NCBI GenBank assembly: GCA_905178155.1
Contig: CAJINV010000016.1
Location: forward strand, 1,021,386 to 1,085,385
Source: Amoebophrya sp. A120
Taxonomy: Eukaryota > Protista > Dinoflagellata
DNA length: 64,000 nucleotides
Direction of reading: 5' to 3'
In this document: positions 35,501 to 61,475 of the stretch, piece by piece
How the letters are laid out: each line of letters starts with the position of its first letter
How positions within the stretch are numbered: the stretch's first letter is position 1
Made by a program: the position numbers and the translations under genes
Notes under the pieces: generated by a model
Told to the model about the DNA's origin: nothing
The model's input: only the letters and a program-made list of their open reading frames with translations
Database searches by the model: none

Positions 35501-38500
35501 GAAGATGTTGGCAAGCACGACGGCTACACCTCCGAAAGAAAGAAGGACGCAGATGGAAAGGCGCTCGTGGTGCACGCGGGGCCAAAGCTGTATTGGACGA
35601 AAGAACGAGACAAGAAAACGAACAGTTATTGGAGCGAACCGCCGGAAAAAGTAGGCTCACAGGAATGGATTGATTTTTTCACGCCCGACGTAGATGATCC
35701 GGACGCGGAACACAAACTGAAATGCCAACAGAACCCGGAGAGCAAGGAGTGCCAACCAAAACAGAAGGCTTTCACCAGCGGAGTGATGGAGCTGGGCAAG
35801 GCTTTCTTCATATCCAAGATAAATAAAAGTTTCTACAGTTAGTACACATTTGATGTTGGAGTTTCTGCAGCGTCACAAAGTTGCTCGACATGGGAAACAA
35901 GAAAACCTGTGACGCGCAGACTAGTATAAGGGAAAACACGAAAAATGAAATCAGGCTGGCAAGCATTTCCTGCATGACAAAGGTTGCCTGTCTTGCTTGT
36001 TTCGCAACACAATGCCGTGTAACTGTAGCACTTTTTTCTTCGCATACTTCAACCTGGTCCACATCCTCACGATCGGAGTGGCGCAATATCCTGTGCAAAA
36101 GTATCGTACTCATATTGCAATCATGCGTTACGAATCTTGTTGTTGAGGTAGATCAGCATTATACAAGTTTTATTTCTCATGCTGAGGAAGAGGAAATTAA
36201 AATTTAGAATGTATTTAATATACGAGTACTACGATACAACTTTTGCAGTTGATACGAAAAACATATATGCGAACATCAAGTGGGTTTACAAGACTTACTT
36301 GGAGCCTGCTCAAATTGAAATTCTCCAAGACGGTCACGAAGAACAGGCGGAGGACAAAGCAGATGATCTTCGTGAGGGGACATCAACCACGACAAGAGGA
36401 GCGGCAGAAAACAAGCACCAGGTCTTCCCCCTGCAGTTGCCCGTTCCTACCCCCGATCTGGCCCAATGGTTCCAGTTTTTTCCGATGAGTTTGCGCGTGC
36501 AGCGGATTCAGCTGCCGCACGGGGACCACGTGCAGCCGTGCCGGCACGAGCACGAGGCCGCGCAAAAGAAGCGCGATCTCCACGACGACATAGAAATTCT
36601 GCGGGGGCGGGACAGCGGCGGGCCGGTGTGCAGTATGGATAGCGTCTCGGACTTGTTGGGTTTGTCTGGTTTTCGTAAAGCGAAAAGTCTTTTTTTCCAC
36701 ATTTTCAAGCTGCTTCAGGAGAATGTCAGAGAGGGCGCGGCGCTGCACAAGGGCGAGCGTTGGGACGTCGTGGACAAAGAGGTGAGCCCGTGGCTGAACT
36801 CGCATTTGTAAGCATTGCTAAAAATGTGATCTCTTCCGGGTCCGAAAGTGAAAACTTGTGATGCTGGTTGCAGAAAAACGAAGACGGATCCATTGGCTGC
36901 CAAGCATGACAAGTTTTGGAGATCATGCTACTGCGGTGTTGTCTATTCTGCATGTAGTTGAATACCGTCCTCTGCGCTTCTTCTCTATGACAGGAACGCA
37001 GGGTTGTACTAGTTGCGGTAACGTGCATGACAAGAACTCTCAGAGAGTTCTTGTCATGCTAGCCGAGCATGAGCATGACACTCTGACTTTCGAGACCCAG
37101 ATTGATATAGTATTTGCAATGCATAGTTTGGTAGGAGAAAAGACGGAGCTCTACCACACAAACTACCAGATGTTCCTCGAGGTCGGCGACCCAACCCGAG
37201 ACGACGCGGACCCTCTGCCGGGCCGCCTCGTGATGGAACTGGATGTCCAGAGCCATCTCGTGGGTCGCCTCCTCCTCTACGCATTCGAGGAGTTCGGGGA
37301 CCTGGGGTCGGGGCAGTTTACGCTGCAGCTGCTTGACGCGCCCTCTGCTGGTGTGGAAAGTGGCGGGGCGGGAGGAGCAACAGCAACAGGAACGGGAACA
37401 ACAGCTCAAGAAGTTGTAGGGGGCGAGGAAGGAGCGGCGTCCTCGCCAGCTTCGTCCACGACTCCCGCCGGCGGCAACACGGACACCACCACAAAGCAGA
37501 AGAAGTATTTTGCCGTGTCCTTTTATGGGAGTGTCAGAATCGAAATGGACCAAATCGAAATAACTTGTGATGCACAAAATCGATGCCAGTTGGAGCCTCA
37601 GTTTCCAAGTGGCGCATGACAAATTTCGGAAGCGCCAAAATCCAGCCTGTCATGCTGTTTGGGCAAAGAAGACTGCTCCTGTCGTGCTATTCTGGAAGCG
37701 CGTCTTCTTTCCCTAAACAGGCTTGCAATTATCGGTCGCATTTGCTTGCTCCCCAACACAGGCCATGCGTGCTCTACATTTTATGCATCACAAGTTTTTC
37801 GATTTTGTCAATTTCGATTCTGACGCCTCCATACCTTTCGTGCACACGCCATGTGCCCTTGTCTCCTGGTCAACCACGGGAAGACCGTGCCGCAACAGGC
37901 GGCAGCGACGACGGCCGCGATGCTGGAGAAGCAGAGGGAGGGGTCAGATAGAGGAAGTTGGCTCCCCCTTCTGTTTGGGAAGAAAAAAAAAGTATTTTTA
38001 AACAGGCCGAGTGATCATGATTTGGGCCCTTATTTGCAGCCAGTGTTTATGGGCGGCCGCCGCCGTCTAGACTCCACGAACTCGTTTCCCTGGGCGCTGT
38101 ATGGATCGCTCCGGACGCCGCAAGAAAAAGAGGCGCGGCTGCGGGAACACATGCAGGAACACGCTACGCCCCGACTGGAGCACCAACTGCGGCTGGATGA
38201 CCTGCTTGTGGCGCACACCGAGGCGGTTGTGTTGGCGAGTGTGTACGAACGCAAGCCACTCGACAAAGAAAGGGAGAACATGAACAAATACGGGGAAACG
38301 GGGTGCTCCTTGAACATGGAAAAAGAGGTGTGGTACGAAAACTTTAGTGCGCAACGGCTGGACCGACAGGACTCGGCGCAGGTCAAGAAGCTGCAACTCG
38401 CTGAGCTTCTGCTCGTTATCCTGTGCAAAAGTATCGTATTCGTATTGCAATCATGCATATACAAATCTTTTTGTTAAAATCAAATGCAAATCCGCATTAT

Positions 38501-41500
38501 CTGCTCATGCTGAGGAAATTTGTAATGCATTTATACGAATATTACGATACTTTTGCAGTTCATACTCGTGGACGTTTCACGAGTGCTACGTGACGTCATT
38601 GTGCAGGTGGTATACAATTATGGAAGTCCTCCCACATCAGCTGACGATGACGTGGTGGCGGTTGATCTCGGAGTTGAAGCACTGCTGTCGGAGTACGATG
38701 AAAGAGTTGAAGCACTGCTGTCGCACTTTCAGTCTCCGAAACCAACAACAACAAGTTCAGCGCAGGAAGGAAATATGAACCAAGCGCAAGCAACTCCAAC
38801 TCCTCAGCAACAAGAAGGACAAGAGGCAGGATCAGGAACTGACCAAGCGCAAGCAACTCCTCAGCAACAGGGAAGACAAGAACTACAACTGGAGACAATA
38901 GCGGACACCCTGCGCGGATTAGACCAGGACTGGAGGGCCTGGTGCCGCAAGAACGGCGGCGTTCTGCTGGCCCTGACGAAGGAGGGTTACGTCGAAGTCC
39001 AGGCGCTGGGCGAGAAAGATGAAGAACAACGCCAAGTCTGGTTCCCCTTTTCTGCAACAAAAACGACAAGTCGGGGCGAGACCCAAGATGTCCGGATCTT
39101 AACTCCTGGTGTTCCCAGCAGTCCTCCTTCCGGTTCATCTTCTCCTGCGCCCGCTTCTGATCATTTTTCTGATAGATTTCCCTGGTGCTACCGTAGCCCG
39201 TCCCTAGAAGCCGTCCAAAAGGAGTACACCATGCACATTCCAGAGAGCATGTTCGTGGAGGCTGCGGAGCAAAAGCAAAGCCGAGGTGTTGAGGAACCCA
39301 CTGAAAAGGATTCCGCCGCCCCGAACCAGAGCGACGTGAAGATTGGATTACTGTCGGTAGAGCCCCGACACTTAGGGGACGAGAGTGGTCGCGCTTTTAG
39401 TAGTACTACTGCAACATCATCTAGGGTGAGAAAGAGTAAGCTGCAGGGCGGGCGGACCGCCTCCCAAAAATACACGCGGCAGAGAAACAGGCACTTCAGC
39501 CGGTGTCAGCTGCGCCGCACGTCACTCACTGGGGTTTTCCCGGCGATAGAAGCTGAAAAGCTGAACGGCCAACTGACGAATATGCATTGCAAAAGTATAA
39601 AGTGTACTAGTATAAATTGCAATATACAAATAATTTCCTTAGCATGAGAAATGGATTTTGTTTTGTGGATTTGCCTTAATAAAAAGATTTGTAATGCAAG
39701 ACTTGCATTTATACGAGTGCGATACTTTAGCAGATGATAGCGAAATATTTCCAGCAATCGTTCCACGCGGTCCGGGAGGAGGAACGAACGAGGGCCCTAT
39801 CAAATGCAAATATGTCTGGGTCGGGAAACTTGTAATGATGCCTTGGGACTAGTGAATGCTTCGTAAATTGTAATGCCCAGCCAAGCATGAGAAATATATA
39901 TCTGCGTGCTGCGTTTGTCGCATGACCAACTGCGTTTTTGCATGACAGACAAATGGGTCCTCTCTTCTTGGACACGCATGATCACAAACTTTTTGGTCAT
40001 CCCAGACAAGCATGACAAATCTCGCAATCTTCCAGACCCAGACACTTTTGCATTTTATAGGCACAGGAAGCTTGCGATCTTTTTGCGAGTGAGAAAGAAA
40101 AAGAGAGAGAGAAGCAGGCTGCAGAGAACAAGAAACTCGAGGAAGAAAAGCAGGCTGCAGAGAAGCAGGCTGCAGAGAACAAGAAACGCGGACCAGTGGG
40201 GGCATGGTTTAACAAAAAACTCGAGGAAGCAAAAGAACCCGGACCAGTGGGGGCATGGTTTAACAAAAACAAGAAAGATATTGGTAAGATGGTGGGAGCG
40301 GGGGCGGCTGTAAAGCTTGGAGCGGTGGGGCTGGTTGTGGCACCTCACGTCGCATTGCCAGCACTTGCAGTTGCTAAAGCAGCAAGCGCAGTTGCCGGGA
40401 CGAGTTATGCAGCACATGCCGTTTTGAAAGACAAAGAAAGGCTGGCGGCGGAAAAAACTATCCTATGTGAAAACGTCCCTACCACCCCACAGTTGTATTT
40501 GTAATGCAAATCTGCATGCTGAAAATCAAAATGCGGCTGATCCGCAAGAAGAGAAGCACTTCCCAGTGGTCGTGTTGCGGAATTTCTGACGTTCCAATCT
40601 TCAGCGAGATCATGTGCTAGATCTGTGTTGCTGCTGTTGAACTACTGAGGATCACACTCTACGAGGCCAAACTTGTCACGCGGAACAGCCAAGGCTTGTT
40701 GGTTTGTCTCGCAGTTGTCCCACAACGGGGCTCGCTAATATGGAGAGGCGTTGGGTTAATACCCGGTCGGCAAAGAGCACTACCGCCGATGACGATGATC
40801 ATGATGAGGCTTCCCGTCTTGACTTTGCTGGGGCGGGGACGTTTTTCCTCATGAGAAAACCTGGTCCGGAGCTACTCCGCGACGTCCTCAAAATACCGCA
40901 GAAGGTGGATGTCGGTCCCGTTTTACGAGTGCTACCGACCCTGCACTACCCGGCAACGAAGGACGACTACGAAAATCGGGCCGAAGGTGCGGGCAGAGTA
41001 CAAAAAGGACTCGGGCTGGCAGCCGGCACGGTGGGAGCGCTGGTTCGCTTGCCCCTGGCGTGGGGGAAAACGGCGGTCGGAAGGGCTAAAAGGGCACTTC
41101 TTGGAATGACAGAAAACGGAGAAGCAGAGAGCCCCACAACAAGCACCCAAGATCCTCCTCCAGGAGAAAAAGATGCCATCGAAATAAACCCGGCAGAAAA
41201 TCCGGGTCGCGGCGAGCGGCCGCGGGGCGGACGGGTCCAGCAAGAGGACGGGCTGCCGGAAACGGCCACGACAGCCGCGGAGCTCCATCGCGACCGGGCG
41301 ACGGTAGGTGTGCTACCGGTCTCTGTGGACGATTTAGCGACGTTCTTGTCACGAAAGTTGAAAGCTCTTATCGATTTGGGGCTCGGTGAGGAGGGAAACT
41401 GGGGTCATATCGCCAAGGTCGCGGCCGATCGCGGTATTGTAAACTTTTTCGTATCAGGCAAAATGAGGGATGATTTGCAAGGATCACTGAAAGCGCTAGC

Positions 41501-44500
41501 CGAATCCCTGTTCTCCGGTTTGGTACTGCGTGTGTATGATCCGAAGGAGTTTTATTTGCTTCCGGAAGGTGGAAAGAAGAGCCAGAGCTCCGCGGGTAGT
41601 TGCAGGACGCTTTTGTCCATGCTTTCTACGTTGTTTAGTACGGGCCAGGTGGATGAAAATCTAGATGACGTCGTACGCGGTCAAGGAGACAGCCACAGTG
41701 ACAGTGGGGACTTCTACTACGGTCGTGGCGCTAGTACAACATCAGCCACAAGAACCTCCTTCGAGGCACGAGATTGGGCGGAACGGCTTGAGCTGGCTGC
41801 CCAGGAGGCGGCGGCGTGCGAGCTCAGCGCGGTGCCGCGCAACATCTTGCAGTCAGTCCTGGGGAAGACGCAGACAGACTGGGTCCTGGGCCGCCAGCTT
41901 GACGTCACGCTAAACGCGGGGCACCCCTCCAGGTTCACCGAGAAACCGATCGCGCGAATAAAAGCACACCTGCCCAACTTGCTCACGTCGCTGTGGGGCG
42001 CAGGCCACAACAAGGATGAGGAGCCCGGGGCCAGCGACGAGAACAACGGCGACAGCATGACGGGAAATACCAAATCCTGGCAGAAGTTCCTGCACCCTCG
42101 GGGGCTCCTGAGCCAGATCAAGTGGCTGCTGTGGGAAATCATTGATTTCTTCAAGAACCCCACACTCAAGCTGCTTGGGGACGTGGTGAAGGGTAGTTTG
42201 GTGCCGCAAAACTACGTGCATTTGCTGGAAGACTTTGACTTCTTGAAGCACACCGTGGTGCACCTGTCGGGGGGATATGGATTGCAAAAATGTCTGGGTC
42301 CTCTGGAAGAGCCAAACTTGTGATGCTGCATTTGGATGCTAAAAAAACCTGTATTGCATGACCAGCAAGACGAGGATTCAAATTTGGCTACGCGGAGAGG
42401 GCATTTCGTTGTCGTGCTGGATGCGCATAGATAAGCGCTTAAAAAATCTGTGATGCTACTATGGCATACCTCACAGACCTCATGGATCATGGAAAATGTG
42501 CATGACATAGTTGTGCTCTTCGAGACCCAGAGCCAGACATGTTTGCAATGCATAGGGGAGATGCGGTCAGCAACCTGGTGCGTCCCGAGGAAGACTGCGA
42601 CTGGTGGCGGGATCGCAGAGGTCTCAATGATCCCAATGCCACGCCGGAGCCGCCGAAGCACTGTCGTTGGCTCCTGGTGGAGTCCATGCATCGGCAATGC
42701 CCTGACGAAGTGGTCACGAACACAGCTGCTGCGGCCGCCCAGGCGCGACGCCGGGAGGGGATCGTGGAAGGTGTAAAGGCGCGGGTGCGAGGTATTGGGC
42801 ATGTCCTCAAAAAACAATGGAAAGATTTCAAGTCGTGGCGCACAGGAGCAGGAGCTACAACGCCTGCTTTGCGACAGATTGATATGTTAAAGCCCATGCG
42901 CGCGGTGCCGCGGCCACGCAGGGAGGCTCGGTATTATCTGCTGCTTGATCTGTATCCCACGAAAAAACTGCTTCACTGTGATGATTTTGCAAGATCTGCA
43001 TCACAAGCTTGTTACGCATGACAAAGAAAACTTGGCCTGCGTGCTTCCTAAGGGAAAACACAGCTAAAAATCCAATGTCTTGCAGCATGTGTAGCAAGAC
43101 AAATAGTTCTGTGCTCCATTTTCTGCATCACAGGTTCGTTTACAGTGAAGCAGTTTTTTCTTGCGATAATCTGGGCGCGACGTGTCAGGTGGTCGTTCTG
43201 GACCAATATGTGACGCGGTCCGACTATCCGGGTTTCAGGATCGAAATCGACAAAGTCGAGGAATTCATTTGTAAAATGCATAAAATGTTGCTGAAGCTGA
43301 GCACATAAACATATCATGTCCTCCTGTGTTCTTGGGCCGCAAGCAAATGAAGCCGATTTTTGCAAGGCTGTTTAGGGGAAGACGATGCGCTCGCGCTGCC
43401 AGTAGAGTAGCATGACGGGGCGAGCAGTCTTCTTTGCCCAAACAGCATGACAGACTGGATTTTGGTGCTCCCCAGTCGGAAGCTGGGACCCCAACTGCTT
43501 GTGTCGATTTTATGCATGCCAATGCCAAATTAGTTCGATTGTGTTGATTTCGGTCCTGGCACTTCCATACCGACGCCGTGGCCGCCTTGGAGCACCGCGA
43601 GTACGTTCGCGCCGGCCCCAAGGCCTTACTCACTTTCGAGGAAGCCGTTCCAGACCCGTGGGGCCATTATTCGTCCATGACGACGGGGTCGCCGCTGGGA
43701 ATTGACAGCGAGGTGTGGAACCAACAGGAGAACTTGCCGCAGCGGCTGGCATATCAAATGCAAAAATGTCTGGGTCTGAAAACTTGTGATGCTGGGTGGC
43801 GTATCATGAAGAGGCCACAAGTGCTGGCTCAGCATGACAAGTTTCTGAGCTTCTAGGTGTTGCCTATTCTGCATGACAAACTGCGTTTCTGCATGACAGA
43901 AAAGTGGCGCTCTTGGGCAACGTGCGTGACAGATTTGAGAGTCATGCCAGACAAGCATGACAAATAACATGCATCCTTCCAGACCCAGACATTTTTACAC
44001 TTGATATGGCAGAAGCGGCCCGGGCGGGAAAAAAGTACGTCGAGTTTTACATTTGGCAAAATAAGCCCCAGCGAAAGATTATCAAATGCAAAAATGTCTG
44101 GGTCTGGAAACTTGTGATGCTTAAAGTGAATGGTAGACGGACTGCAATGCGCAGCTATGCATGACAAATTTTTTGGCTCCCATGTCTTACGTATCCCGCA
44201 TGCCAAACTGCGTTTTTGCATGACAGGTAAGAGGGCCTTTTCGTGCCTATGCAACACAGATTTTCGAGTCATGCCAGACAAGCATGACAAACTTGCACTC
44301 TTCCAGACCCAGACATTTTTGCATTTGATAAAGATGTCTCGGATCGGGGTGCCCATCGACGACGTGAAATCGGTCCTGTGGGACTACAACGCAAAATTCA
44401 TACAACAGTCCTTGGGCACGGTAGCGCCGCACAAACTGGCCAGGGAACAGACCTCCGGCGCTTTTGTGGCGCAGGTGGTGCAGGATACGCAGGATCCCGG

Positions 44501-46175
44501 CGGTTGTGTCTTGCAGAGCGCGGTGAGCAGTAAAACAAAAAGCAGCACTCCTGCGCAGGAGCTGTTGTTCCAAAACCCTTACGTGGTGTGCCCTAAATCC
44601 TTGAAAGATAGTAAACAGCACTTGACGACCCAGTTGAACTTGGAGCACTTGAACTTCGCCCGTTCGGTCGACGACTATGATGCCCGCCTGCCGCGCGGAG
44701 TAGACTTCTCTAAGAAGCAAGAGCAGTTCGCTTTCAGCACAATGAGACAGACGAAATGCCTGCCAGACTGGGTGACAGAGAGGCTGGTGAGGACCTCCAC
44801 CGCCGACAAAAAGACGTCGCCCACCACCAGCTTCGACGCAGATGGGGGGTTCCTGTTTGGTCTGATGGTCGATCACGCGCAGTGCGACAAGTGCGCAGCG
44901 GTTTGGTTTGCAAAGGTTCGGAGCGGCTCAGTACCAGTCGGAGCCGTGGAGGAGTTTGCACACCCTGTAGTACTAGCGAAGTACGACATCGCACCAGAGG
45001 CTGCAAATCAGTGCGACATGAGAAATGTGGAGGCCAAGGTGCGCGGATGTCTTCTGCTGCGCCAACAAGGGAAATTGGAATGCAAAGCGTGCAGGCTGAG
45101 CTATGAGCTTTTCCCCCGAAGCGAACATCTCAGCTCGCCCTCGCTGGTCGATTTTTTCCAAGACGAAAGACCAGATAAGGATGACCTTTTGAATGGGGCC
45201 GCTCAGCAGGACCACGAGTACCTTACTCAGCTGAAGCAATGGACCGACGAAATTGTCAAGAACGTCCTGAGCACGGACATGGGTGAAGAGGCCGGGGCGA
45301 AGAGAAAAAGGGCGAAAGCTGCGCTCAGGGACGAGTATTGCCCCCGGAGGGAAGTGGATTTCGGCAAATGCAAGCGCCTGCGCCTCGGGCACTGTGCGGC
45401 CACCATCAAACGATGTCAACAAGAAGCATCCGTCGAGGCAGGGAAAGTAACAGCTTCCTTGGTTGGAATGGACTTGGACACCCATCTCGAACACGAAAAG
45501 GTCCTAGAAAGCTTGATATCAAATGCAAAAATGTCTGGGTCTGGAAACTTGTGATGCTAAAATGTGCACGATGAAAACACTTCCGAATGCAGTCCGGCAT
45601 GATAACTTCCCAAAACGCTTTCTCATAGGCAATCCGCGTGAGAAACTGCGTTTTTGCATGACAAACACGGGTGGTGTTGCGGGTAATCCTGGCGAAAGCC
45701 AAAAACCGGCAGAAAATGGGGCCACGGGAGAGTTCTTGCTGGACATTACCAACATTTGCCCACGCAGAGCCGTCCTCTTGCCGGACACAACCAATGACAA
45801 AAGAGCTTGCGACTTTTGTTGGTTATGCAATACAGATTTTCTAGGTATGGAAAGCTAGCATTACAAGTTCCAACCTTCCAGACCCAGACACTTTTACAAT
45901 CCATACTTGAATCAAAAATGCAAAAAAGAGATGGAGGAAAGCACGGGCTGCTCCGAATTGCTGGCGGAGGTAGCCTGTGCAAAAGTATCGTACTCGTATT
46001 GCAATCATGCGTTAGTGTATACAAAATTTTTTTCTCAAGGTAAATCTGCATTACAAACTTTATTTCTCATGCTGAGGAAATTTGTATTGCATTTATACGA
46101 CTACGATACTTTTGCAGTTCATAGGAGGACGTTGCGAGCAAAAGGGCGGCCATGCTGATGGGGACGGGGCCTTGA
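32557..46175 (+). CDS. Giant hypothetical, probably secreted protein (~3147 aa, 17 exons, 16 introner introns)
   Basis: Removing the 16 listed introners (each +5-nt repeat; 40457-40859 for the degenerate one) leaves 9444 nt = 3148 codons in one frame; hydrophobic N-terminus MLTTLRVSVLSHSLQQILLVHQVALA; long acidic low-complexity N-terminal region. Confidence 0.8.
33357..33565. mobile_element. Introner intron
   Basis: tatccaagaagaaaattgtgt...acacagtttttttctttgata; direct repeat ttcga; AF|EQLEV. Confidence 0.9.
35811..36046. mobile_element. Introner intron
   Basis: tatccaaga...ctacagtta / taactgtagcacttttttcttcgcata; direct repeat cttca; AFF|NLV. Confidence 0.85.
36087..36254. mobile_element. 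Introner intron, tgcaaaagtatcg family
   Basis: tatcctgtgcaaaagtatcgta...ttttgcagttgata; repeat cgcaa/cgaaa; VAQ|NIY. Confidence 0.85.
36809..37125. mobile_element. Introner intron
   Basis: taagcattgctaaaa...tatttgcaatgcata; repeat atttg/gtttg; SHL|VGEK. Confidence 0.8.
37524..37833. mobile_element. Introner intron, 'gtcaggatcgaaat' family
   Basis: tatgggagtgtcagaatcgaaat...atttcgattctgacgcctccata; direct repeat ccttt; VSF|RAH. Confidence 0.9.
38417..38564. mobile_element. Introner intron, tgcaaaagtatcg family
   Basis: tatcctgtgcaaaagtatcgta...tacgatacttttgcagttcata; direct repeat ctcgt; LLV|DV. Confidence 0.9.
39581..39739. mobile_element. Introner intron, tgcaaaagtat family, inverted relative to 38417
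   Basis: tatgcattgcaaaagtat...gatactttagcagatgata; repeat acgaa/gcgaa; internal ttccttagcatgagaaa is the reverse complement of the tttctcatgctgaggaa core. Confidence 0.85.
39798..40059. mobile_element. Introner intron, 'tgtctgggtctgga' family
   Basis: tatcaaatgcaaatatgtctgggtc...gacccagacacttttgcattttata; repeat ggccc/ggcac; TRA|QEAC. Confidence 0.9.
40459..40855. mobile_element. Degenerate introner intron, gaaaaacgtcc family
   Basis: tatcctatgtgaaaacgtccc...gggacgtttttcctcatgag; A-rich flanks; frame restored by removing ~40457-40859. Confidence 0.55.
42276..42554. mobile_element. Introner intron, tgtctgggtc family
   Basis: tatggattgcaaaaatgtctgg / ccagacatgtttgcaatgcata (20/22); direct repeat gggga; LSGG|DAVS. 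Confidence 0.92.
42953..43168. mobile_element. Introner intron, 'aaaaactgcttcactgt' family
   Basis: tatcccacgaaaaaactgcttcactgt / acagtgaagcagttttttcttgcgata; direct repeat atctg; LDL|GATC. Confidence 0.92.
43225..43569. mobile_element. Introner intron, caggatcgaaat family, inverted relative to 37524
   Basis: tatccgggtttcaggatcgaaatc...gatttcggtcctggcacttccata; direct repeat ccgac; RSD|AVA. Confidence 0.9.
43752..44006. mobile_element. Introner intron, tgtctgggtctgga family
   Basis: tatcaaatgcaaaaatgtctgggtctg / cagacccagacatttttacacttgata; direct repeat tggca; RLA|EAA. Confidence 0.95.
44080..44330. mobile_element. Introner intron, tgtctgggtctgga family (perfect ~30-bp TIR)
   Basis: tatcaaatgcaaaaatgtctgggtctggaa / ttccagacccagacatttttgcatttgata; direct repeat aagat; RKM|SRIG. 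Confidence 0.95.
45517..45905. mobile_element. Introner intron, tgtctgggtctgga family
   Basis: Same TIR; direct repeat cttga; ESL|NQKC. Confidence 0.92.
45971..46123. mobile_element. Introner intron, tgcaaaagtatcg family
   Basis: tagcctgtgcaaaagtatcgta...tacgatacttttgcagttcata; direct repeat ggagg; LAE|DVAS. Confidence 0.9.
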
Positions 46176-46297
46176 GGCATCCCGCTTGGTTGATGTCTCT
46201 ACGATCCGGGACCAAGACGTCCTTGCCCTCTTTCCTTCGATCACGCCATAGGACGTCGATCGGGTGGTTGACTACGAGATTGGTAGGACGATAGGAA

Positions 46298-46510
46298 TAT
46301 CGCAAGAAAGAACTGTTGCGCTGTGAACTTGTAATGCAGAAACTGTATCTGACTGAGAAGTGTTTGTCTTGCTACACATGCAAGACAATGGATTTTTAGC
46401 TGTCTTTTTCCTTAGGAATCTAGCATGGCAAATTTTCTCTGTGATGTAGAATTAACTTGTGACGCAGAACTTGCAAAATCCTTACAGTGAAACACTTTTT
46501 TCGTACGATA
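46298..46510. mobile_element. Introner copy downstream of the stop codon (3' UTR/intergenic), inverted relative to 42953
   Basis: tatcgcaagaaagaactg...acagtgaaacacttttttcgtacgata; direct repeat aggaa. Confidence 0.85.
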
Positions 46511-48031
46511 AGGAACGAAGCGAAATTAATACTACGAATGGTGCACCAGCACCCCGGTGCAGCAACATCATTTATTTCGAGTAAGTGGGTATCAGGGAGA
46601 GCAAACCAAAACCTATTTTACGGTAAAACGTAACGCGCTGCTTTCTTTTGCGCGACACTTTTTGTTTTTTTCTCATTTAAGTATTCTTTAAGTACCTCTT
46701 TCTTCATCAAATTGCAATCCATGCAAAATTTTATCGATCTGATCTCTGCCTTTTTTCGTGTTCCACAACCGATCTTGCTTTTGCTGTTTCTTTGCCTTTT
46801 CGTATGAATATCAAAAATATTACCGTACTAGTTCAACATCATTATCAACATAACTGTGCTGCTACTTCTTCTTGTATAATCTTCTTGTAAGTAGTGAAGT
46901 TCTTCAAAAAAATTAAAACCTATTACTGTCAAACATAGATCGTAAGAACGGAGTATTTAGAAATATCTGTGAAGTTGTGGGCGATCTATCAATAGGAAGC
47001 ATGTTTTACAGTTTCGTGCGACTACTAACTTACACGACGAGATTCTCGTCGAAGCAGCGGCGTGCTTTGAGGACGAGGAAGCGCGTTGTGCCGGTTCGTT
47101 GGGGGTTGAAGATCTTGTTCACGATTATCTCTGTTCCTTTCCGTTTTGCATGTCGGTCTGCTAGATTCATGCTTTATTTGTGGTTAAATGATAATAGCTG
47201 CACAACCACAAGAACTTCTCGTTTTCTGTCGTGCAGATCGATGATGATGCACACACTAGCTACAATGTCGGTTTGGAGACTTCTTCATCTGATATACTTA
47301 ACACGAAGAATTTTTGATCGGTGCGTTGACCTTGACGACGTCCTCCCACGGCATTTGTCTTGCTTCGATTCTACGACCACTTTTCTCCTTGTGCGCCATG
47401 CCAAAGGCGGTCTCTACTCTTCGGTCCTATTTCTCAGACTTTTCATCATCGGTATGCGTATGAGGATGCTCAGTAATTCCCATACGTAGCTAGAATTAGA
47501 TAGAAGTACAATACGCACGCGTGCTTTCGTTTTCTTTGTCGTAAAATGGACTTATCTTATGCAGAAAGAAAGTCCGAGTCGGTTTTTGAAGATTCCGAAG
47601 TCGGTTCGTACGTCCTGGTCGCACGTTGTACTAGCTCTCTTCTTACTAAAATATGACAGAGACTCTGTCATAGATGGTTAACATTTTTATCGTTCACCAG
47701 CCTTTGACTCGTCCTTACGTTCCAGGTCGTTGACCACCACGTCCATAATAATCATTGTCGTACGTTAAAAAACACGAACACCGCGATATAATTGCGGTGC
47801 CGTCATGACGATAACAAAATTTAAAATCTTCAAACACAGTCTCATCCCCTAGCTGTCCCCTCAATCACGTATTTTGATTATTTCTTCTACTTCCCCAGTA
47901 GAAGCGGTATTTGTGCTCATAGAGGGTTAGTACTACATCTAACTACAACAGTTAGTCCACAATGATCCTCTGTTCTATCTTGTAACTAGCGGCACGAGGA
48001 GGTACATACAACAAGGAAGGACGGCAGCGAA

Positions 48032-51000
48032 ATGAAGACCATGGCCGCGGCCACGAAGAGGTGGAAGACCAAGACGGCTGGTTTTTGTTCAACCACACGG
48101 CTACTTGTTTACTTATTTTCGGCCGCACGAGGACCGCAGCTCATCAGGGGTCAACAAGGGGATCAACATCATGATCAAAATCACCGTCCTCGCCGGGATA
48201 TGCATTACAAAAGTTGTATCTTCGCACTCGTATAAAAATAAATGCATCACAAATTTCGATTTCCTCAGCATGATGAGAAATAGAATGTGTAATGCGGACT
48301 TAATACCTGCTGCTGCTGCTGCTGCTCAAGGAAAAGACTTGTTATGCATGACTGCAATTGGAATTGCTACGAGTGCGATAGTACATTTGCAGTGCATACG
48401 GGACGCCCGGAAGTTTCTCAGCCCCGACATCCAAGTTGAGCAGCAGCCCGAAAGTTTTGTCGAGCAGCCCGAAATTGAAAGCGTTGTCGAGCAGCGGGGG
48501 GCAGAGCGAATACCTCTAGTAGGGGCGGGCCTCCGTGAAGATGATGTTGACGTGCTGGCTGACACCAGCGAGCAGTCGCAGCGGCTTTTACAGCACGCGG
48601 GGTTCTTGCAACAGCAGGTAGAAGAAGAAACCGAAGCAACTACGACCACTCTTGCTTCTACGTTGTCGTCAGCGGCTGCAACTAGTACTTCGTCAGACTT
48701 TTTGGAAGAGCAAAAAGCCTCGTCCTCCATTTGGGTGGATGAAGCCGGCGAAGTTGTTGATGCTGTAGAAGCTGGAGGTCGTGCCAGCACCAGTAACGAC
48801 CACGATTTTCTTCTGATGTCGGGGTCAACATCTTCTGCTACTGGTACGGCTTCGGCTTCGGCTTCGTCAGGGGCGTCCGGGGGCAGTGTGGAGTCCTCGT
48901 CCTTTGTCACGCGGCAGGTCAAGACGGCAGAAGCGACGAATCATGGTGAAGGAGCGACGGAGCGGACCTCGCATACTTCAGTGCTGCTGCCTCCGTTGTC
49001 GGCGGGACTGGGGAGCGGTGTTGGGAACGGCAAAAACAAACTCAATCTCGCTCCAAAGACGGCAGAAGCGACGAATCAGGGTTCAGTACCTCAAGGAGGT
49101 CAAGCTCCTCTGCCGACTTTGCTAGGCGCAGGCCGAGTAAGGCCGCAGGTGGGCCCACCATCCTCGAAAGATGGGCAGAAGATGGAGCAAACCAATGCCA
49201 ATGTGGAGCAGGCGCGGGCGGGGCGGGCGTCCCGGTATGCATCTCCAAGGGATAAAAATATCGGAGTAAAAACGATTGGCGGAGGTGGAGTTGTTGCTGC
49301 GACCGGCGAAAAAGAAGCTCGGGGTAACGGTAAAGGACAAGAAATCAAACATGATACAAAAACAAAAAGTGAAAAGAGTGGACCGTCTTCGTCTATGGCA
49401 GTGTCAGGATCGAAATCGACAAAGTTGAAGTATAGTAGTTTGCACTTCATCATGCATGAAATGCGAGCGACAGGCAAAGTGTGCCTCTACTAAACAGCCG
49501 GCAAGTGAGGCCGATAATTGTACACCTCTTCAGAAGTAGAGGTAGTAGAAATGGAGCTAGTGACGAACTAGCACTAGCACAGAACAAGCAGTCTGCTTTA
49601 TTTCTCCAACAGCATCAGCATGACAGACTGGCTTTCGGATCTTCCAAAATGTGACACAGCCCGCTTGAAAATTGGGGTCGGTAACTGGAACTGGTCGTGT
49701 CGCCCGGTGTCTTTGTTTTATTTTTATGTACTGTAGATATAAACATCAGCAGCAGCTTTTTCTTTTTGTTTTTATTCAACTTTGTGGATTTCAGTGCTGA
49801 CATGTTCCATATCGTTTTGGTTTCCGTCCTTTTCATCGCTGAAGGACAACGTGTCGTCGCTGAAGAACAAGGCCCTGGCGCAAGTGGAAAAGGTGAAGAA
49901 TTCGGCCGTGGGCCTTGGTTCGCATATGGTGAAGAAATTCAAGGAGTCCGAGTTCGTCAAGAGCCTGAGGCGCCACGCCGGCCAGGCTCTGGACAAAGCC
50001 AAAGGCGCCGCGGAGCAGGCTACACTCATGGGCATGCAGGCGTTGGACAACTACGTGAGGGGCAACCCGTGCCAGCTGCCGATCTCCCTGGACAGCGCGC
50101 CCACTACTGCTCAGGAAGATAACCAAGTGATCACAGCCGGGCCGCAGCTGTTTCTCGCTACCAGGCAGGTTACTTTGCCGAATGGGCAAACTCGGGCGCA
50201 GACCAAATTCGTCGCGGCGCCGTCCAGGGACACCGGCACGTGGAAAAGTTTCTTTCTGCAGCCGTGGATCGGGATGTTTGACGAGAAGAAGTCCACGACC
50301 CTGTCCTCGTCTGATCCTCATACGACGAGATCTTCAACCGATGCCGCAGCTCCTGCCACTGCTGGTGGACGAGAGGAGAAAAATTTCGACAAAACCGAGT
50401 GGCACGCCGTCGCCGTGCTGTCTGGGGGTCTCAAGCAACAGACTGTCTGTTCGGCCGGGCTGGTGCCCGTAACGGCCTCCCTGGTGCGGCACGCCGCGCC
50501 CTTCACGAGTCCGGCAGGTTGTCGCAGCCTCGAACGCGCTTTCGTGAAAGACCCGCAGCCGGTCCAGGAAGTGATCAGCTGTCCCACGCCCCTCTATCCG
50601 CTGCAAATCATTTGTCGGGGTCGGGAAGGTTGTAATGCTAATGCTAGGCCGTGAAGGTGAAGGATGGATCATGTCAGCAGCCACGTCCGTGATGATGATG
50701 AACGAAGATCATGGGCGGCATACGCGCCGCATTGCAATACGCTGACGCAACAAACTTGCTGCATGATGGTACTAAATGTTCTTTGCGCTAGTATTTTGCA
50801 GTTCGTCTTGTTCATCATCGTCCGCATAGCACGACCAGGCTAGGTTTCAAAAATATTTGCATGACAGCAGGAGGATCAGGAACAAGGAAGACTACGTTTT
50901 CGTGCCGATGCATCACAGATGGATTTCAGACATGCTTCCAGCCGAGGCGCAATTTCGCAGACCTGGCATTTGCAAATTTCCTTTTCCAGACCCAGACACA

Positions 51001-54000
51001 TTTGCAATGCATATTCTCCAAGAAGGAGCAAAAGGCTGGAGCAAATTTGCCGCAGGAATGGCTGGTCGCTTCGTCGCAAACGTGGATCGGATGGAGCACA
51101 TTGACGAGAAATATCCTGCTGAGGAAAAACTACGTCCCAACCCAGGTTTGTCAAGTGCAAATCTGCAACTGCATCATGCCTGCAATGTCGTCGTGCCACT
51201 CACGCGCGGACTCGATTTGAGAAGCATTTTGATTTTCTCACACTATCGGGGAGTTTGTCATGCGGCCAGAATCAGGATTATTACTTAGGCGAAGATCGGT
51301 TTAAGGTGCTGCTGCTGCTGCAGCGCTAGCTAATAAACACGAAGACTGCACGTACACGACTGTGATGGAGGAGGTCCAAACTTGGCACGCCCGACATCAG
51401 CCAACTTGTTTATACATAGGTAGGTAGGTACTAATATTATACGCCGGCATTATACAGTCCATGAAGGTCTTGTTGCCTCTGGGTCGGAAATAAAAACCTT
51501 TTTCCGCAGGATTGGAAAATTCACTTTCGCATCGCCGCAGAGGAGGTCGGGCCGGAGTTTGAAACCTTCCAAGTGGCGCAAAGGATTCTCCTGTCCTTTC
51601 CCTCCAAGACAGACAAGGAAATGCCCGCGAAAGCGACCATGGTCGCGGAACTCGAATTACACAGCCGGCTGGCCGTGCGCGCGGCGCTCGCGACCGGGGC
51701 GTTCGACTTGGACCATGGTGCGGGGGCGGTCTCCCTGCGCATTCTGGACGAAACAAGTACGGGGACGAACGGGTTGAAATACAACGACGTCGCTGCCTAC
51801 ACGAACAGCCACAATGGTTACACGGCTCTGGTTTTCCAGTCCCATGCGTACTGTCCACTGATGCAGCGCAAGAAGACGGTGGAGTGGATGGTCGTGGGAG
51901 AAGGGGGTAATAGATTGAAAGTGTCTATGGATCAGACGAAAACGCGGCCTTTGATTTTATCGACACGGATGGTAGATTGGCGCTGGATATCAAATGTAAA
52001 AATGTCTGGGTCTGGAAGAATGCAAGATTTGTGATGCAGGTTTTCCATGAGCCATGAGGTCTAGAATGCGAGACCCAGCATGGCAGATTTTTTGAGGTCT
52101 CTATCATCCCTTTCCTGCATGAGAAACTCCCTCTCAACTTGGTCAAAAGCGGACAGCTTTTGGCGCTCACGCAACACAGATTTTTACATCATTCAGATTT
52201 AGCATGACAAGTTCTAACCTTCCAGACCCAGACATTTTTGCACTGGATACTGGAGGAACCGGGAACAGGAAGATCCGAACCCAAAGTCGACGAAGTTCTT
52301 CGCGCAGTTGCAAGAGCTTGGCGCAGAAGCTAAAGCATTCTGGCACGGGAGTCGTCCCCTCGTAAACGATTTTTTCGAAGATTACAAGCGGCAGTCGGGC
52401 GTGTTGCAGAAAGAATGGTACTTCCAGGATCAGCTGGACCGATTTCTCACAAAGACTTTTCCCAAAGGTGAGTCTGTAACTGAGATGGAAAAAGCGCAGC
52501 AGCGCATTGGCGCGATCCTGGACAAAGCCACGAGCTACCTGGTCCTAGCGGACTTTGAACCATCAAGCGCTGACAGGGAGATGCCACACCTGCCCTGTGA
52601 TTGCTCCGCTCTGCCGATACACCAGAACTTTGCCGCCACTCGATCGGACGTGGCGGCAGGCCGGAAATTGTTGATTGGAGAGCTTGTTGTCCCGCATGAC
52701 GAAGATGCAGACGAGCTCTTGGACGAGGCAGCGAACAATGCGGACTGGTGCGAAAAGCATTTAGCCGGCAAAGTCATCGCTGATGGTTTGGACAAGATGA
52801 GAGTGACGCTGGATCATGTTGGAGGCAACGGAGCAGGTGCTGTCAACACCGCCAAACCTCCCAAACAAGCTCTCAAGTTATGCCTACGCACCGGGGACCA
52901 CGTCGCCCAGGAGGTTACCAGATACATTCCCGAAGACATGTTGCTAGCTGCACTGGATCTGCATCGAAGCGGTGACGAACCAACAAGCGGTCCGAAGCCC
53001 CCAGCAATTGTGAAGGTGGAGTCTGTGAAGCCTTATGCCGGTGCCGCACGGACGCCGCGTTTCGGCCGCTGCCAGCTGCGCCTGATGGCGAGCAGCGACG
53101 ACCTGCTGTCAGCGTTTACGCATTGCAAAAGTATCGCACTTCTAGTATAAATCACATCACAGATGAAAATAATGACTTTGGCAAGAAGATGAAAAGTGAA
53201 GCTTGTAGCGCTAGTACATTACCTAAGATAGGCATAGGGGATTTATTCTCCTGCTGCATGACCGCAATTATTACGCTTGCGATACTTTATTTACACTGCA
53301 CAGCGTTTATGAAATGCAAAAGCATCGTACTAGTATGATAAATCGCATGACAAATTCCCTCAGCGTGAAGAATGGAATTTGTAATGCGGATTTCCCTTAA
53401 GAAAAAGATTTGTAATGCATGACTGCAATTACTACCCTTGCGATACTTTTACACTGCACAGCGTTTGTCGAGGAGCAATTGCGTGACATTCGTGCCGAAA
53501 CTGCTAGGAAAGAAGAGAAAGAGTCAGTGCGTGCCTCGAGACTCTCAAGTGTCAGAGGCGAGCTAGTAAAAGAGCTAGACGCTCACGTTCGTCAGAAAAA
53601 GGCAGTGGAGAGCGACATGGCCTCCAAACACATGGAGCTGCCGGAAGATGCACAGCAATGCGAGAGAGAACTGAAGGAACTGTATGACAAACAAGAACTG
53701 ATCCAGTTACGGGCGTTGGGACCAAATCGAAGTGCAAGAGCCGACGCATCGAATCGAGGTTCCACTCTTGACTCAACACGAAGAAGAGCCGACGATTTTT
53801 CGGAAGTCGAGGAGGGGCAGCGTAGCAGGGACGACGCCGAGGAGCTGGACGAGTTGACCTTGAATGAAAAGTATTTGACCCCGCTGAAAGCAAAGCTGGA
53901 CGAGTGTGCGGACCGCATCAACCGCATATACCCACCAGGAACACCGTCAGCGTGGAGTAAATTGACGGACTACCATGGTTCGGAAAAGGCCAAGCAAATT

Positions 54001-54223
54001 CAGAAGGAAGAGGAGCAAAGAAGGTATGCAGAACTTCTGCGCGTGCTGGACGAGGCGCTGTCGAAAGATATCGAAGCCTATCAGGACAAGCTGCCGAAAC
54101 GGGGGCAAGACCACCCAGACCCCCAACAACAACAACAAGGTCCACGGTTGCAGGGGTTGAGAAAGTTGGGCGCCATTGCGATGAACGCTGTGGAGGAGAA
54201 ACGAAGAAAGATACAAGAGGCCA
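48032..54223 (+). CDS. Large hypothetical, probably secreted protein (>1372 aa), paralogue-like to 32557-46175; 3' end cut off at ~54452
   Basis: Exons 48032-48198, 48404-49393, 49817-50594, 51019-51111, 51519-51987, 52255-53116, 53466-54223 join in frame; shares FxRCxLR motif (FGRCQLR vs FSRCQLR/FGKCKRLR) and RQVTLPNG vs RIQLPHG. Confidence 0.75.
48199..48398. mobile_element. Introner intron, tgcaaaagtat family (inverted type)
   Basis: tatgcattacaaaagttgtatc...tttgcagtgcata; direct repeat cggga; PRR|DARK. Confidence 0.88.
49394..49811. mobile_element. Introner intron, gtcaggatcgaaat family
   Basis: tatggcagtgtcaggatcgaaatc...gatttcagtgctgacatgttccata; repeat tcgtc/tcgtt; PSSS|WFP. Confidence 0.85.
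50595..51013. mobile_element. Introner intron, cagacccaga family (diverged)
   Basis: tatccgctgcaaatcatttgtcggggtcgggaa...ttccagacccagacacatttgcaatgcata; repeat ccctc/ttctc; TPL|QEG. Confidence 0.8.
51112..51513. mobile_element. Introner intron, tatcctg-gaggaaaaac family (diverged)
   Basis: tatcctgctgaggaaaaac...tttttccgcaggatt; repeat agaaa/ggaaa; DEK|IHFR in frame with 51573. Confidence 0.75.
51988..52249. mobile_element. Introner intron, tgtctgggtctgga family, inverted relative to 42276/54224
   Basis: tatcaaatgtaaaaatgtctgggtctggaa / ttccagacccagacatttttgcactggata; direct repeat ctgga; WRW|RNRE. Confidence 0.92.
53117..53460. mobile_element. Two back-to-back introners (53117-53302, 53308-53460) separated only by the 5-bp repeat
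   Basis: gcgtt at 53112, 53303 and 53461; each unit has tgcaaaagYatcg...cgatactttt(att)tacactgcaca-type ends; removing both gives LSAF|VEE. Confidence 0.88.
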
Positions 54224-54451
54224 TATCAAATGCAAAAATGTGTGGGTCTGGAAGGTTGCAACTTGTGATGCTGCATTTGGATTCCAAAAAAACTTCGTAT
54301 TGCATGAGCAGCAAAGACAGAGAATGCAATTTTTGCTACGCAGAGAGGACATTTGTCATGCGGACTAGGCATCAAGATGCCCTCAAAAAATCTGTGATGC
54401 TAGGGCATGCATCACAGACATCATGGGTCATGGAAAACCTGCATGACAAGT
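54224..54451. mobile_element. Introner truncated at its right end
   Basis: Left TIR tatcaaatgcaaaaatgtgtgggtctggaa and interior collinear with 42276-42554, but stops after gcatgacaagt; right TIR and ggcca repeat missing. Confidence 0.8.
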
Positions 54452-55126
54452 CCCCTGTCTCGCCCATCAAGATCCCTAATCCGTAGCTCCTAGACGTTGC
54501 CTGGCCCGCGAATGACTCCACGGCAGCCGGATGTCTATAACCCGCTCAGGAATTAACTTCAGCATGATTTTTAAAAAAAAGTAGGTACTTTTTTCTTTAC
54601 TTATTTAAATTAAATTAGCTATGTAGAAACCCACACTTTGAACTAGCTAGATCGAAGGTCGACCAGGTCCTTTGCGGATGCGTCCCGCAACGCTGGAGAG
54701 GGTCGAAGACGGTTCGCGTTGGAGGCCATTTTGGTGGTCTATTTCTATTGAATTGCTCGACCGGAACGACACCTATGAGAAGCGTGCCCTACTTCGGTTA
54801 CCTGCTGGGCAAGATTTGATTCGGATTCTTTGCATAGACATCAAGCAAAAAAACTGTGAAAATTGAGCGAATAAAGGGAAAGCTCGGTGATAATTTGAAT
54901 ATTCATGGTGTAGGAGTATGGATTTCAGTGTGAATGTACTGCGTTTGATCTGTTTCAGGGCCTGGCGAGGTTAGAACTTCCCAATTTTTGTAGTATTTTT
55001 AGCAAGATCCCACGAGCAGACTACGACAAATTGACTCATCAAATTGCATTGTTTTTGTATATCTAAACAAAGCGACCTCAATTTTCACAGTAAACAAGCA
55101 TACTCCTCTCTCAATCGAGTACGAAT

Positions 55127-60500: not shown

Positions 60501-61475
60501 CGCTTCGCAGACACGGTCGGGTTGAACATCATGGGAATGAATTGTTTTAGCTTCACGAGCTGCTCGTCCGACACCTCCAGGTCCCCGTACGTCAACTCCA
60601 CCCAAAACCCCAACTGGGGGTCGTACCGGTCGGAATATGCAATACAAAACTGGCACCATCACTTCCGCCTTGCAGCATCACAAAAAGCACAGATAGAAGT
60701 CAGTAAATGTTTTGGTTTGCATTCTGGGAAAGATGACAGTTTTGCATATCATATCCAGAGAGCAAAACTCACAACCTTCCGGTAGATTTTCCAGGAGGAT
60801 GACGTGTACATGTTCCCGCGAATGTACTGCTCCGCCAGGTGGCTCAGCAGCTGGTAGTTCATGTGTTTTCCCTTTTTCTTGTAGATGTTCTGGATTTCCA
60901 CCGTGCTGTACTTCTTGCCAAGCTCGGCGGTGGGGTCGTCAAAAAATCTGCGAGCGGTGTCGACCAAAACCGGATCCGTCAGAACTGGCGTGAGCCGCCC
61001 CGTGGTTTCGATTTTGTGGATCAAAAAACTCAGGTCACAGTGGGCTGCAGTAACGTCGACGCAGGCGTCCAACTCCTCCTCACTCAAATTGAGTAGACAA
61101 GTCAAAGTTTCCGCAGGTGGGTATGCAGATGAAAAACAAACCAAGTGCAAATTTGTCATGCAAAAAATGAAGAAAGATCAAGACTATGACAGCCACGATG
61201 TAAGACATTTGTCATGCCATTTATGCGATAGTCAGGTAATAAGGCATCTACACTTGGTATTTTTTTCACCCCATATGTATCCTCTCCAACCGATCGGATT
61301 ATTTTCCTGGAGGTCCCTGTCGGTCTGCGCAACCACCTCTCCACCCTCACGCTCGATGATCTGCTTCACTTCGTCCGGGTTCATGTTCTCGATGTTCGCA
61401 TACTTCAAGGATTCCACCGGATCGGTCAGAGCGCTGAGATACATCAACCACTTCCCCTTGTTTGGCTTCACCAGT
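57600..61475 (-). CDS. Multi-exon orphan gene(s); coding blocks approx. 61260-61475, 60760-61115, 60230-60640, 59690-60000, 59170-59560, 58805-59000, 57895-58615, 57600-57730
   Basis: Series of same-strand ORF blocks with strong C/G third-position bias separated by ~120-200-bp AT-rich spacers rich in GCATNACA; exact splice sites not resolved. Confidence 0.6.

What the first reader, a model, noticed from the sequence alone, without database searches (positions are those of the whole stretch)
37524..54451. Same introner families act as introns in both orientations within one gene
Seen: 37524 interior (ccaaaatccagcctgtcatgctgtttgggcaaagaagactgctc) is the reverse complement of 43225 interior (gagcagtcttctttgcccaaacagcatgacagactggattttgg). 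36087/38417/45971 (ctcatgctgaggaa) are opposite to 39581/48199. 51988 is opposite to 42276/54224, and 42953 to 46298. The intact coding-region copies restore + strand frames either way. Inference: strand-specific internal signals such as a branch point or pyrimidine tract are dispensable, pointing to symmetric, structure-guided RNA splicing or to DNA-level excision like ciliate IESs.
Basis: partly seen in the sequence, partly recalled or inferred. Interest (0 to 1): 0.85.

Follow-up and report, generated by a model that had tools for sequence, protein, structure and literature searches.

The report
Transposon introns spliced in either orientation
Small transposon copies inside genes of what is likely a marine parasitic dinoflagellate are missing from probable RNA contigs whichever way round they sit, likely because their mirror-image ends carry the splice signals; two-way transposon introns are known, but these appear to be cut at a fixed position without the usual GT-AG letters.

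Summary
Four families of MITE-like introners (TAT...ATA inverted ends, 5-bp target duplication) sit in both orientations. Contigs of probable RNA runs lack exactly element plus one duplication copy for 20 copies, 9 of the 12 named among them; DNA-like runs keep them.

Corrections: the copies span two genes; 46298 lies after the stop and is retained; 54224 is truncated. In a second assembly 112 of 125 strand-called copies restore the frame, 39 versus 56 by orientation.

DNA excision is not seen. The inverted ends put a U-run near the 3' end in both orientations, so such signals are not shown to be dispensable. No sign of selection for RNA pairing was found.

Not found in my searches: seven mismatched duplications fit one register (1 nt before, 4 nt after the element). 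The 5' end reads N-T-A, an A at -7 is invariant, and G and AG are not needed. Best reading: a U1-less spliceosome reads end-borne motifs. The features match Amoebophrya A120 introners; two-way introners are published for Polarella and Aureococcus.

The parts
32557..46175 (+). host gene 1: one long frame after removing 16 elements; function unknown
   Evidence: 3166-codon stop-to-stop frame 32500-46175; ATG at 32557; no Pfam hit for 7 exon frames; no longer homologue for one exon
33357..33565 (.). introner, family D, forward; duplication TTCGA
   Evidence: needed for frame; removal not tested with contigs
35811..36046 (.). introner, family D, forward
   Evidence: joint 35805>36047 (241 nt) in X3 and X4, 0 in X2
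36087..36254 (.). introner, family B, forward; mismatched duplication, left copy kept through position 3
   Evidence: joint 36084>36258 (173 nt) in X3 and X4, 0 in X2
36809..37125 (.). introner, family C-like; left copy kept at position 1; donor reads GTAAG in the inferred register
   Evidence: joint 36804>37127 (322 nt)
37524..37833 (.). introner, family A, forward
   Evidence: joint 37518>37834 (315 nt) in X3 and X4, 0 in X2; opposite to 43225 and 49394
38417..38564 (.). introner, family B, forward; the TTTTGCAG inside its 3' arm is not the junction
   Evidence: joint 38411>38565 (153 nt)
39581..39739 (.). introner, family B, reversed
   Evidence: joint 39576>39741 (164 nt); opposite interior
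39798..40059 (.). introner, family C, forward; left copy kept at position 4
   Evidence: record arithmetic: 267 removed, 267 predicted
40459..40856 (.). introner, family E; left copy kept at position 4
   Evidence: X3 piece starts at 40861, one side only; needed for frame
42276..42554 (.). introner, family C, reversed
   Evidence: one of five whose sum, 1371 nt, equals the gap in X3 record 10
42953..43168 (.). introner, family D, forward
   Evidence: same 1371-nt sum
43225..43569 (.). introner, family A, reversed
   Evidence: same 1371-nt sum; opposite to 37524
43752..44006 (.). introner, family C, forward
   Evidence: same 1371-nt sum
44080..44330 (.). introner, family C, forward; near-perfect 30-nt inverted ends
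   Evidence: same 1371-nt sum
45517..45905 (.). introner, family C, forward
   Evidence: 552 removed, 552 predicted together with 45971
45971..46123 (.). introner, family B, forward; the only window copy that reads GT..AG in the inferred register
46298..46510 (.). family D copy, reversed, perfect duplication, 118 nt after the gene-1 stop; RETAINED in probable RNA contigs
   Evidence: X3 piece 46124-47029 unbroken; X8 piece 46163-46368 crosses its left border
47990..54223 (+). host gene 2 (3' end not resolved); function unknown
   Evidence: 1473-codon frame after removing 7 elements; no Pfam hit
48199..48398 (.). introner, family B, reversed
   Evidence: X3 piece starts at 48399, one side only; opposite interior
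49394..49811 (.). introner, family A, reversed; right copy kept at position 5 (the only upper bound on the register)
   Evidence: X3 pieces join 49388>49812; lies whole inside X1 contig 48241-51006
50595..51013 (.). introner, family C-like; left copy kept at positions 1-2
   Evidence: 1098 removed, 1098 predicted with 51112 and 51988
51112..51513 (.). introner, family E; 3' end ATT
   Evidence: same 1098-nt sum
51988..52249 (.). introner, family C, forward (opposite to 42276 and 54224)
   Evidence: same 1098-nt sum
53117..53460 (.). two family-B copies in tandem (53117-53302, 53308-53460) sharing one GCGTT; 53308 reversed
   Evidence: X3 pieces join 53109>53459, 349 removed, 349 predicted
54224..54452 (.). 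family C copy, reversed, right end missing
   Evidence: X3 contig leaves the genome at 54223, resume point not seen

Best explanation
These are non-autonomous inverted-repeat DNA transposon copies (TAT...ATA ends, 5-bp target duplication) that sit in genes in either orientation and are likely removed from pre-mRNA by a relaxed, reportedly U1-less major spliceosome that likely reads motifs in the mirror-image ends. Steps: (1) Insertion either way round duplicates 5 bp (anatomy shown; transposase inferred). (2) The arms read the same from either side, so each orientation offers TA at the 5' end and a U-run followed by S-A-T-A at the 3' end (shown). (3) The cut likely falls at a fixed place set by transcript direction: 1 nt before the element and 4 nt after it. 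The intron thus starts N-T-A, like GTA with a free first base, and ends 7 nt from an invariant A, with no AG needed (register inferred from 7 mismatched duplications). (4) Element plus one duplication copy is lost, restoring the pre-insertion codons (shown in contigs that are probably RNA). The spliceosome as catalyst and the -7 A as branch point are inferred and untested.
For: Removal: 20 copies give exactly length+5. Six are direct joints in X3 and X4 with 0 in X2. Three are adjacent pieces and eleven are exact sums of 267, 1371, 552 and 1098 nt. Register: the left copy is kept in 6 of 6 cases at positions 1-4 and the right copy at position 5 in the seventh. Three of these were predicted in writing before the second lay and met. 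Chance under free registers is about 0.02. Only this register puts T at +2 in 134 of 134 copies. All 9 top A120 splice pairs in Table S4 of PMC7789003 start N-T. Polarella class 12 (5-nt duplication, NNAGG) uses the same register with a spliceosome. Direction: 5' ends deviate only at arm position 3 (5 cases) and 3' ends only at positions 1-2 (7 cases); 5 of 5 fit in the second assembly, p 0.03. No AG need: AG ends 12 of 134, G starts 35 of 134, GT-AG 5 of 134; TTTTGCAG inside the 3' arm is bypassed at 36087 and 38417. Both orientations in frame: 39 vs 56, all five families. PMC7789003 reports U2, U4, U5, U6 and 83 of 89 proteins present and U1 not detected in A120.
Against: Nothing here shows the catalyst; no lariat or circle data. 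The upper bound of the register rests on one copy (49394), and an allele difference could mimic it. No shared branch consensus surrounds the -7 A, and its constancy may reflect the transposase. The element finder allowed only one mismatch in the terminal triplets, so their conservation is partly built in; only the side-by-position pattern is informative, and 7 of the 12 cases were post hoc. 46298 has intact ends and a perfect duplication, yet is retained. X3 and X4 are one sample and only guessed to be RNA. The organism is inferred from element anatomy, not from a named match.
Confidence: 0.6

Rival explanations
1. A hairpin-guided, non-spliceosomal cut-and-join (as proposed for euglenid nonconventional introns) removes them from RNA; the paired arms, not their sequence, set the cut.
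For: End duplexes are more stable than the shuffled mean in 24 of 24 copies. No GT-AG. U1 was not detected in A120. Euglenid introns have inverted ends, duplication-like borders and leave as circles (review PMC11282704).
Against: No strand advantage in pairing (sense lower in 56, antisense in 72 of 134; G-U 63 vs C-A 78). Family C arms pair at positions 4-8 no better than arms swapped between copies (0.68 vs 0.74). Weak duplexes (-12 to -14 kcal/mol) are removed, while 46298 (-24) is retained. The 5' end keeps a donor-like T+2 A+3.
Confidence: 0.28
2. The elements are excised from DNA in some nucleus or life stage, like ciliate IESs, and the joined contigs come from that DNA or its transcripts.
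For: Transposon-like ends that begin and end with TA. X3 and X4 are only guessed to be RNA. Contigs drop rare variants. Only one DNA-like sample was laid, and it may be the window's own source.
Against: Depth 0 in X2 at 6 of 6 joints; X1 and X2 contigs cross the borders. A second assembly holds 250 elements in place. Removal takes both TAs, unlike Paramecium IESs (recalled). The cut pattern follows transcript direction. No nuclear dualism is known in this group (recalled); no paper held both terms.
Confidence: 0.05
3. The joins are reverse-transcriptase template switches across hairpins between direct repeats.
For: Direct repeats plus a hairpin are the classic setting for this artefact (recalled).
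Against: A switch would be expected to keep the right-hand copy, but the left copy is kept in 6 of 6 cases at positions 1-4. 46298, with a perfect repeat and a good hairpin, is not skipped. The 3166-codon frame needs all 16 removals.
Confidence: 0.03

Closest known systems
Amoebophrya sp. A120 introner elements (Farhat et al. 2021, PMC7789003; seen: abstract, sections 10-12 and 16, supplement text and Table S4 rows, no figures)
   Same: Inverted ends starting TAT with an A-run about ten bases in, 3-5 nt direct repeats, about 240 nt, RNA-supported non-GT-AG borders, many families; top splice pairs all N-T.
   Different: The paper calls the borders variable or unknown, and its 'orientation' passages concern genes, not elements. 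It gives no fixed register and no directional reading of the ends in the text I saw.
Polarella glacialis ILE classes (Roy et al., bioRxiv 10.1101/2020.10.14.339549; passages seen) and Aureococcus introners (known only through that preprint; Huff 2016 not held)
   Same: Classes 1, 2, 3, 6, 7, 8 and 10 make introns in either orientation. Class 12 has a 5-nt duplication and takes the donor's first base from the last base of the duplication, the same register as here.
   Different: There the sites are GT/GC/GA...AG and need AG or G in the element or duplication; classes 6, 8 and 10 favour one orientation and class 12 works on one strand only. Here G and AG are not needed and the overall ratio is 39:56 (p 0.10).
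Euglenid and diplonemid nonconventional introns (PMC6221363 passages; review PMC11282704 section 6)
   Same: Paired ends, duplication-like borders, no GT-AG, MITE origin proposed.
   Different: Their pairing is +4..6 with -8..-6, they have Y|R borders and lack a pyrimidine tract. Here +2 faces -5, border bases are free, and a U-run is present. Circular release is untested here.
Fritillaria borealis MITE-derived non-canonical introns (review PMC11282704 section 6; PMC13326754 passages)
   Same: Transposon introns with non-GT-AG ends, removed by a modified major spliceosome.
   Different: Preferred AG-AC/AG-AT ends and U1 retained; animal lineage.
Ciliate IESs, including MITE-derived ones (Blepharisma preprint seen as search listing only; the rest recalled)
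   Same: Transposon-derived, either orientation, TA at the ends, precise restoration of genes.
   Different: IESs are removed from DNA and leave one TA; here DNA-like runs keep the elements and both TAs are lost.

Membership tests
Amoebophrya A120-type introner | inverted ends starting TAT with an A-run, plus 3-5 nt direct repeat | tested here: met
Amoebophrya A120-type introner | repeated families, removed from transcripts with non-GT-AG borders | tested here: met
   RNA status of the runs is the tool's guess
Amoebophrya A120-type introner | host is Amoebophrya A120 | tested here: inconclusive
   no genome held; protein searches gave no named relative; inferred from anatomy
MITE (non-autonomous TIR DNA transposon) | terminal inverted repeats and constant-length target duplication | tested here: met
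   95 of 114 perfect 5-bp, 13 with one mismatch, 6 worse
MITE (non-autonomous TIR DNA transposon) | cognate transposase | not tested
   no genome; PMC7789003 found none in A120
canonical U2 intron | GT...AG borders | tested here: not met
   5 of 134 in the best register, 0 in the other five
canonical U2 intron | pyrimidine run near the 3' end | tested here: met
   TTT in 119 of 134, in both orientations
canonical U2 intron | branch adenosine and lariat | not testable with these tools
   invariant A at -7 in 134 of 134 is a candidate only; no shared consensus
Polarella class-12-type ILE | 5-nt duplication, donor first base from its last base | tested here: met
   7 mismatched duplications fit; upper bound from one copy
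Polarella class-12-type ILE | needs AGG in the duplication; one strand only | tested here: not met
euglenid nonconventional intron | +4..6 pairs with -8..-6; Y|R borders | tested here: not met
   +2 faces -5; border bases free
euglenid nonconventional intron | released as a full-length circle | not testable with these tools
   no raw RNA reads of this strain
ciliate IES | joined form exists in somatic DNA | tested here: not met
   0 at 6 of 6 joints in X2; one sample, contigs only
self-splicing group I/II intron or other Rfam RNA | match to a curated RNA family | tested here: not met
   0 matches at gathering score in the window

The most novel reading that the evidence does not exclude
A U1-less spliceosome that picks both splice sites by counting from the transposon's own end motif. 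It cuts 1 nt before T-A and 7 nt from an invariant branch A, ignores G+1 and AG altogether, and skips textbook TTTTGCAG acceptors. Any insertion of this transposon superfamily, in either orientation and at any target sequence, would then be a ready-made, scar-free intron.
Probability: 0.35. Interest if true: 0.85.

Novelty: new variant of a known kind. Interest (0 to 1): 0.52.

Why it matters
How Amoebophrya removes tens of thousands of non-GT-AG introns without U1 is an open question in the paper that described them. This analysis makes it testable. It gives a predicted register (1 nt / 4 nt), two candidate read-out positions (T+2 A+3 and A-7), evidence that interior strand and AG are irrelevant, and a natural retained control (46298). 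It would also explain why these transposons could invade coding sequence at any site in either direction. Two-way intron creation in itself is not new.

Tried and rejected
- Run labels: no RNA holder is on record; X3-X5 and X8 are guesses.
- Silent stretch: bin arithmetic suggests X3 has no cover at 47030-47845 where X1 has, and that its contig starts at 47846 as predicted if 48199 is removed. This is a weak hint only.
- Raw RNA reads: X9 hit only one element end, so no strand information.
- 'Orientation explains the retention of 46298': rejected. Ten reversed family-D copies restore frames in the second assembly, two with ends much like those of 46298.
- 'The duplication is 4 bp plus one directional base': rejected; it is 5 bp.
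- 'GCATGACA is a sense-strand branch motif': rejected as universal. It occurs on both strands and is absent from several spliced copies.
- 'Intron = element plus one base each side': rejected; skips are length+5.
- RNA-pairing selection: not detected.
- Pfam: 0 hits for 25 window frames. Of 86 flank pieces few hit; these back the strand call for a forward copy (L039, ABC transporter) and a reversed copy (L031, RING finger).
- Homologue searches named no organism. Rfam: none. Earlier findings: none.
- Literature searches for element orientation or register in Amoebophrya found nothing beyond the papers named. Huff 2016 is not held. Supplement figures S19-S25 of PMC7789003 and the preprint's supplements were not visible and may bear on novelty.


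Full report
OBSERVATION. The region holds about two dozen 150-420 nt elements with inverted ends (TAT...ATA) and a 5-bp direct repeat. With 40 nt of each end removed, interiors fall into families whose members align either way. 37524 is opposite to 43225 and 49394 (family A). 36087, 38417 and 45971 are opposite to 39581 and 53308, and 36087 and 45971 to 48199 (B). 51988 is opposite to 42276 and 54224, and 45517 to 42276 (C). 42953 is opposite to 46298 (D). Opposite scores lie 9-48 SD above shuffles. Removing each element plus one repeat copy gives a 3166-codon frame (16 elements) and a second 1473-codon frame (7 elements). The named copies therefore span two genes; 46298 lies 118 nt past the first stop, and 54224 lacks a right end.

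RNA OR DNA. No genome is held. Eleven runs were listed, none on record as an RNA holder; six were laid. In 35700-43700, X3 and X4 (one sample, guessed RNA) show six joints of exactly length+5: 35811, 36087, 36809, 37524, 38417 and 39581. X2 has depth 0 at all six, and its contigs cross the borders (15 of 35 joint rows shown, the other 9 shown being repeat noise from X2). X3 record coordinates give exact removals for 14 more copies: 39798 (267); 42276+42953+43225+43752+44080 (1371); 45517+45971 (552); 49394 (423); 50595+51112+51988 (1098); 53117+53308 (349). 40459 and 48199 are seen from one side. Both orientations of families A, B and C are thus removed inside gene 1. X1 and X2 are one sample and may be the window's source; contigs hide rare forms.

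SECOND ASSEMBLY. An exact 25-nt arm pattern found 127 loci in one other assembly. Of 114 complete family-C copies, 95 have a perfect 5-bp repeat, 13 one mismatch and 6 worse. A general finder gave 250 elements. A codon model trained on the window's genes called the same strand on both flanks for 125; 99 weak and 26 discordant were dropped. 112 of the 125 are in frame after removing length+5, against a permutation mean of 43 and maximum of 63. Of the 95 in-frame copies with a family, 39 are forward and 56 reversed (p 0.10): A 2:1, B 4:4, C 28:36, D 2:10, E 3:5. D looks skewed but is small. Pfam hits back the strand call for one forward and one reversed copy. These copies have no RNA check.

REGISTER. 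Where the two repeat copies differ, the contig shows which is kept. The left copy is kept at position 1 (36809, 39581), 1-2 (50595), 3 (36087) and 4 (39798, 40459); the right copy is kept at position 5 (49394). One register fits all: the intron starts 1 nt before the element and ends 4 nt after it. Three cases were predicted in a note. Chance under free registers is about 0.02; the upper bound is one copy. In this register the intron starts N-T-A in 134 of 134 copies (112 second-assembly, 22 window); first base A 43, G 35, C 32, T 24. It ends in AG in 12, and AG occurs unused within the last 30 nt in 125 (RNA-checked only for window copies). All nine top A120 pairs in Table S4 of PMC7789003 start N-T. 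Keeping the left copy is the opposite of what a reverse-transcriptase switch should give (inference).

WHY ORIENTATION DOES NOT MATTER. Both arms share T-A-T-S-N-A-N-T-G-C-A-A-A-A across families, so every copy ends in a U-run followed by S-A-T-A; TTT lies there in 119 of 134. The signals are duplicated, not shown to be absent. The ends are read with direction: 5' ends deviate only at arm position 3 (5 cases), 3' ends only at positions 1-2 (7 cases). The 5 cases in the second assembly all fit (p 0.03); the 7 in the window were post hoc. The arms can pair (24 of 24 below the shuffled mean), but the transcribed strand has no advantage (-35.4 vs -36.2 kcal/mol, p 0.08; G-U 63, C-A 78), and family-C arms pair no better at positions 4-8 than swapped arms. 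A test this size cannot exclude a need for pairing in the conserved core.

MECHANISM. Best reading (0.6): a relaxed major spliceosome uses the arm's TA as donor +2/+3 and sets the acceptor by distance from the 3' arm, perhaps from A-7 as branch. The catalyst and the branch are inferred. Rivals: hairpin-guided non-spliceosomal joining (0.28), DNA excision (0.05), library artefact (0.03). Retention of 46298 is unexplained. Orientation is not the cause. Candidates are a G at arm position 13, seen in 1 of 134 other copies, or decay of transcripts spliced downstream of the stop (inference).

KNOWN WORK. The anatomy matches A120 introners in PMC7789003 (abstract, sections 10-12 and 16, supplement text). 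That paper reports U1 missing and leaves borders and mechanism open; the organism here is inferred, not matched. Intron creation in either orientation is described for several Polarella classes and attributed to Aureococcus, always with G-type donors and AG. Polarella class 12 uses the same register with NNAGG (bioRxiv 10.1101/2020.10.14.339549, passages). PMC9860276 allows opposite-orientation copies in its method (passages); PMC12130899 lists diverse A120 introners (passages). Euglenid and Fritillaria cases were seen in PMC11282704 section 6, PMC6221363 passages and PMC13326754 passages. Ten searches found no statement of orientation counts, fixed register or directional end-reading for Amoebophrya. 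Unseen figures, closed supplements and subscription papers may hold one.

VERDICT. A real feature and a known kind. The headline (two orientations) is expected for inverted-repeat introners. The fixed AG-free register and the directional reading of the ends are the new, testable part. Interest 0.52.

Noticed in passing
window 53112-53465: Two family-B copies in tandem share one GCGTT (repeat-element-repeat-element-repeat); both are removed together.
   Followed up: yes
window elements 33357-53460: The motif GCAT[GCT]ACA occurs 54 times on both strands in 6348 nt of elements and 0 times in 13716 nt of exon; likely a subterminal transposase site.
   Followed up: partly
window 52166-52249: Raw RNA reads of X9 (same species label) match only this element end, with foreign flanks and no exon cover: the family seems shared with a different strain or species.
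   Followed up: no
window 57732-57892, 58620-58802, 60636-60753, 61122-61275: Similar inverted-end elements in an apparent minus-strand gene, most with decayed duplications; their junctions would be unambiguous tests of the register.
   Followed up: no
window 54224-54452 and 54853-55091: A truncated copy where the X3 contig leaves the genome, followed by another inverted repeat without a duplication; the end of gene 2 is unresolved.
   Followed up: partly
window about 10500-13750 and 16770-20120; 24990, 25814, 29209: A block duplicated at about 6.2 kb spacing (98-99% identical) and a 300-nt triple repeat beside assembly gaps.
   Followed up: no
window 3633-3917 and 4000-4159: Two more introners with perfect duplications, 82 nt apart; 4000 belongs to family B.
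   Followed up: partly
L017:571-1051, L025:1030-1525, L049:765-1461: Family-C copies of 480-700 nt with perfect duplications, probably with nested insertions.
   Followed up: no
L001-L127: At least 44 further elements of families absent from the window share the TAT...ATA ends and 5-bp duplication, which points to one transposase superfamily.
   Followed up: partly
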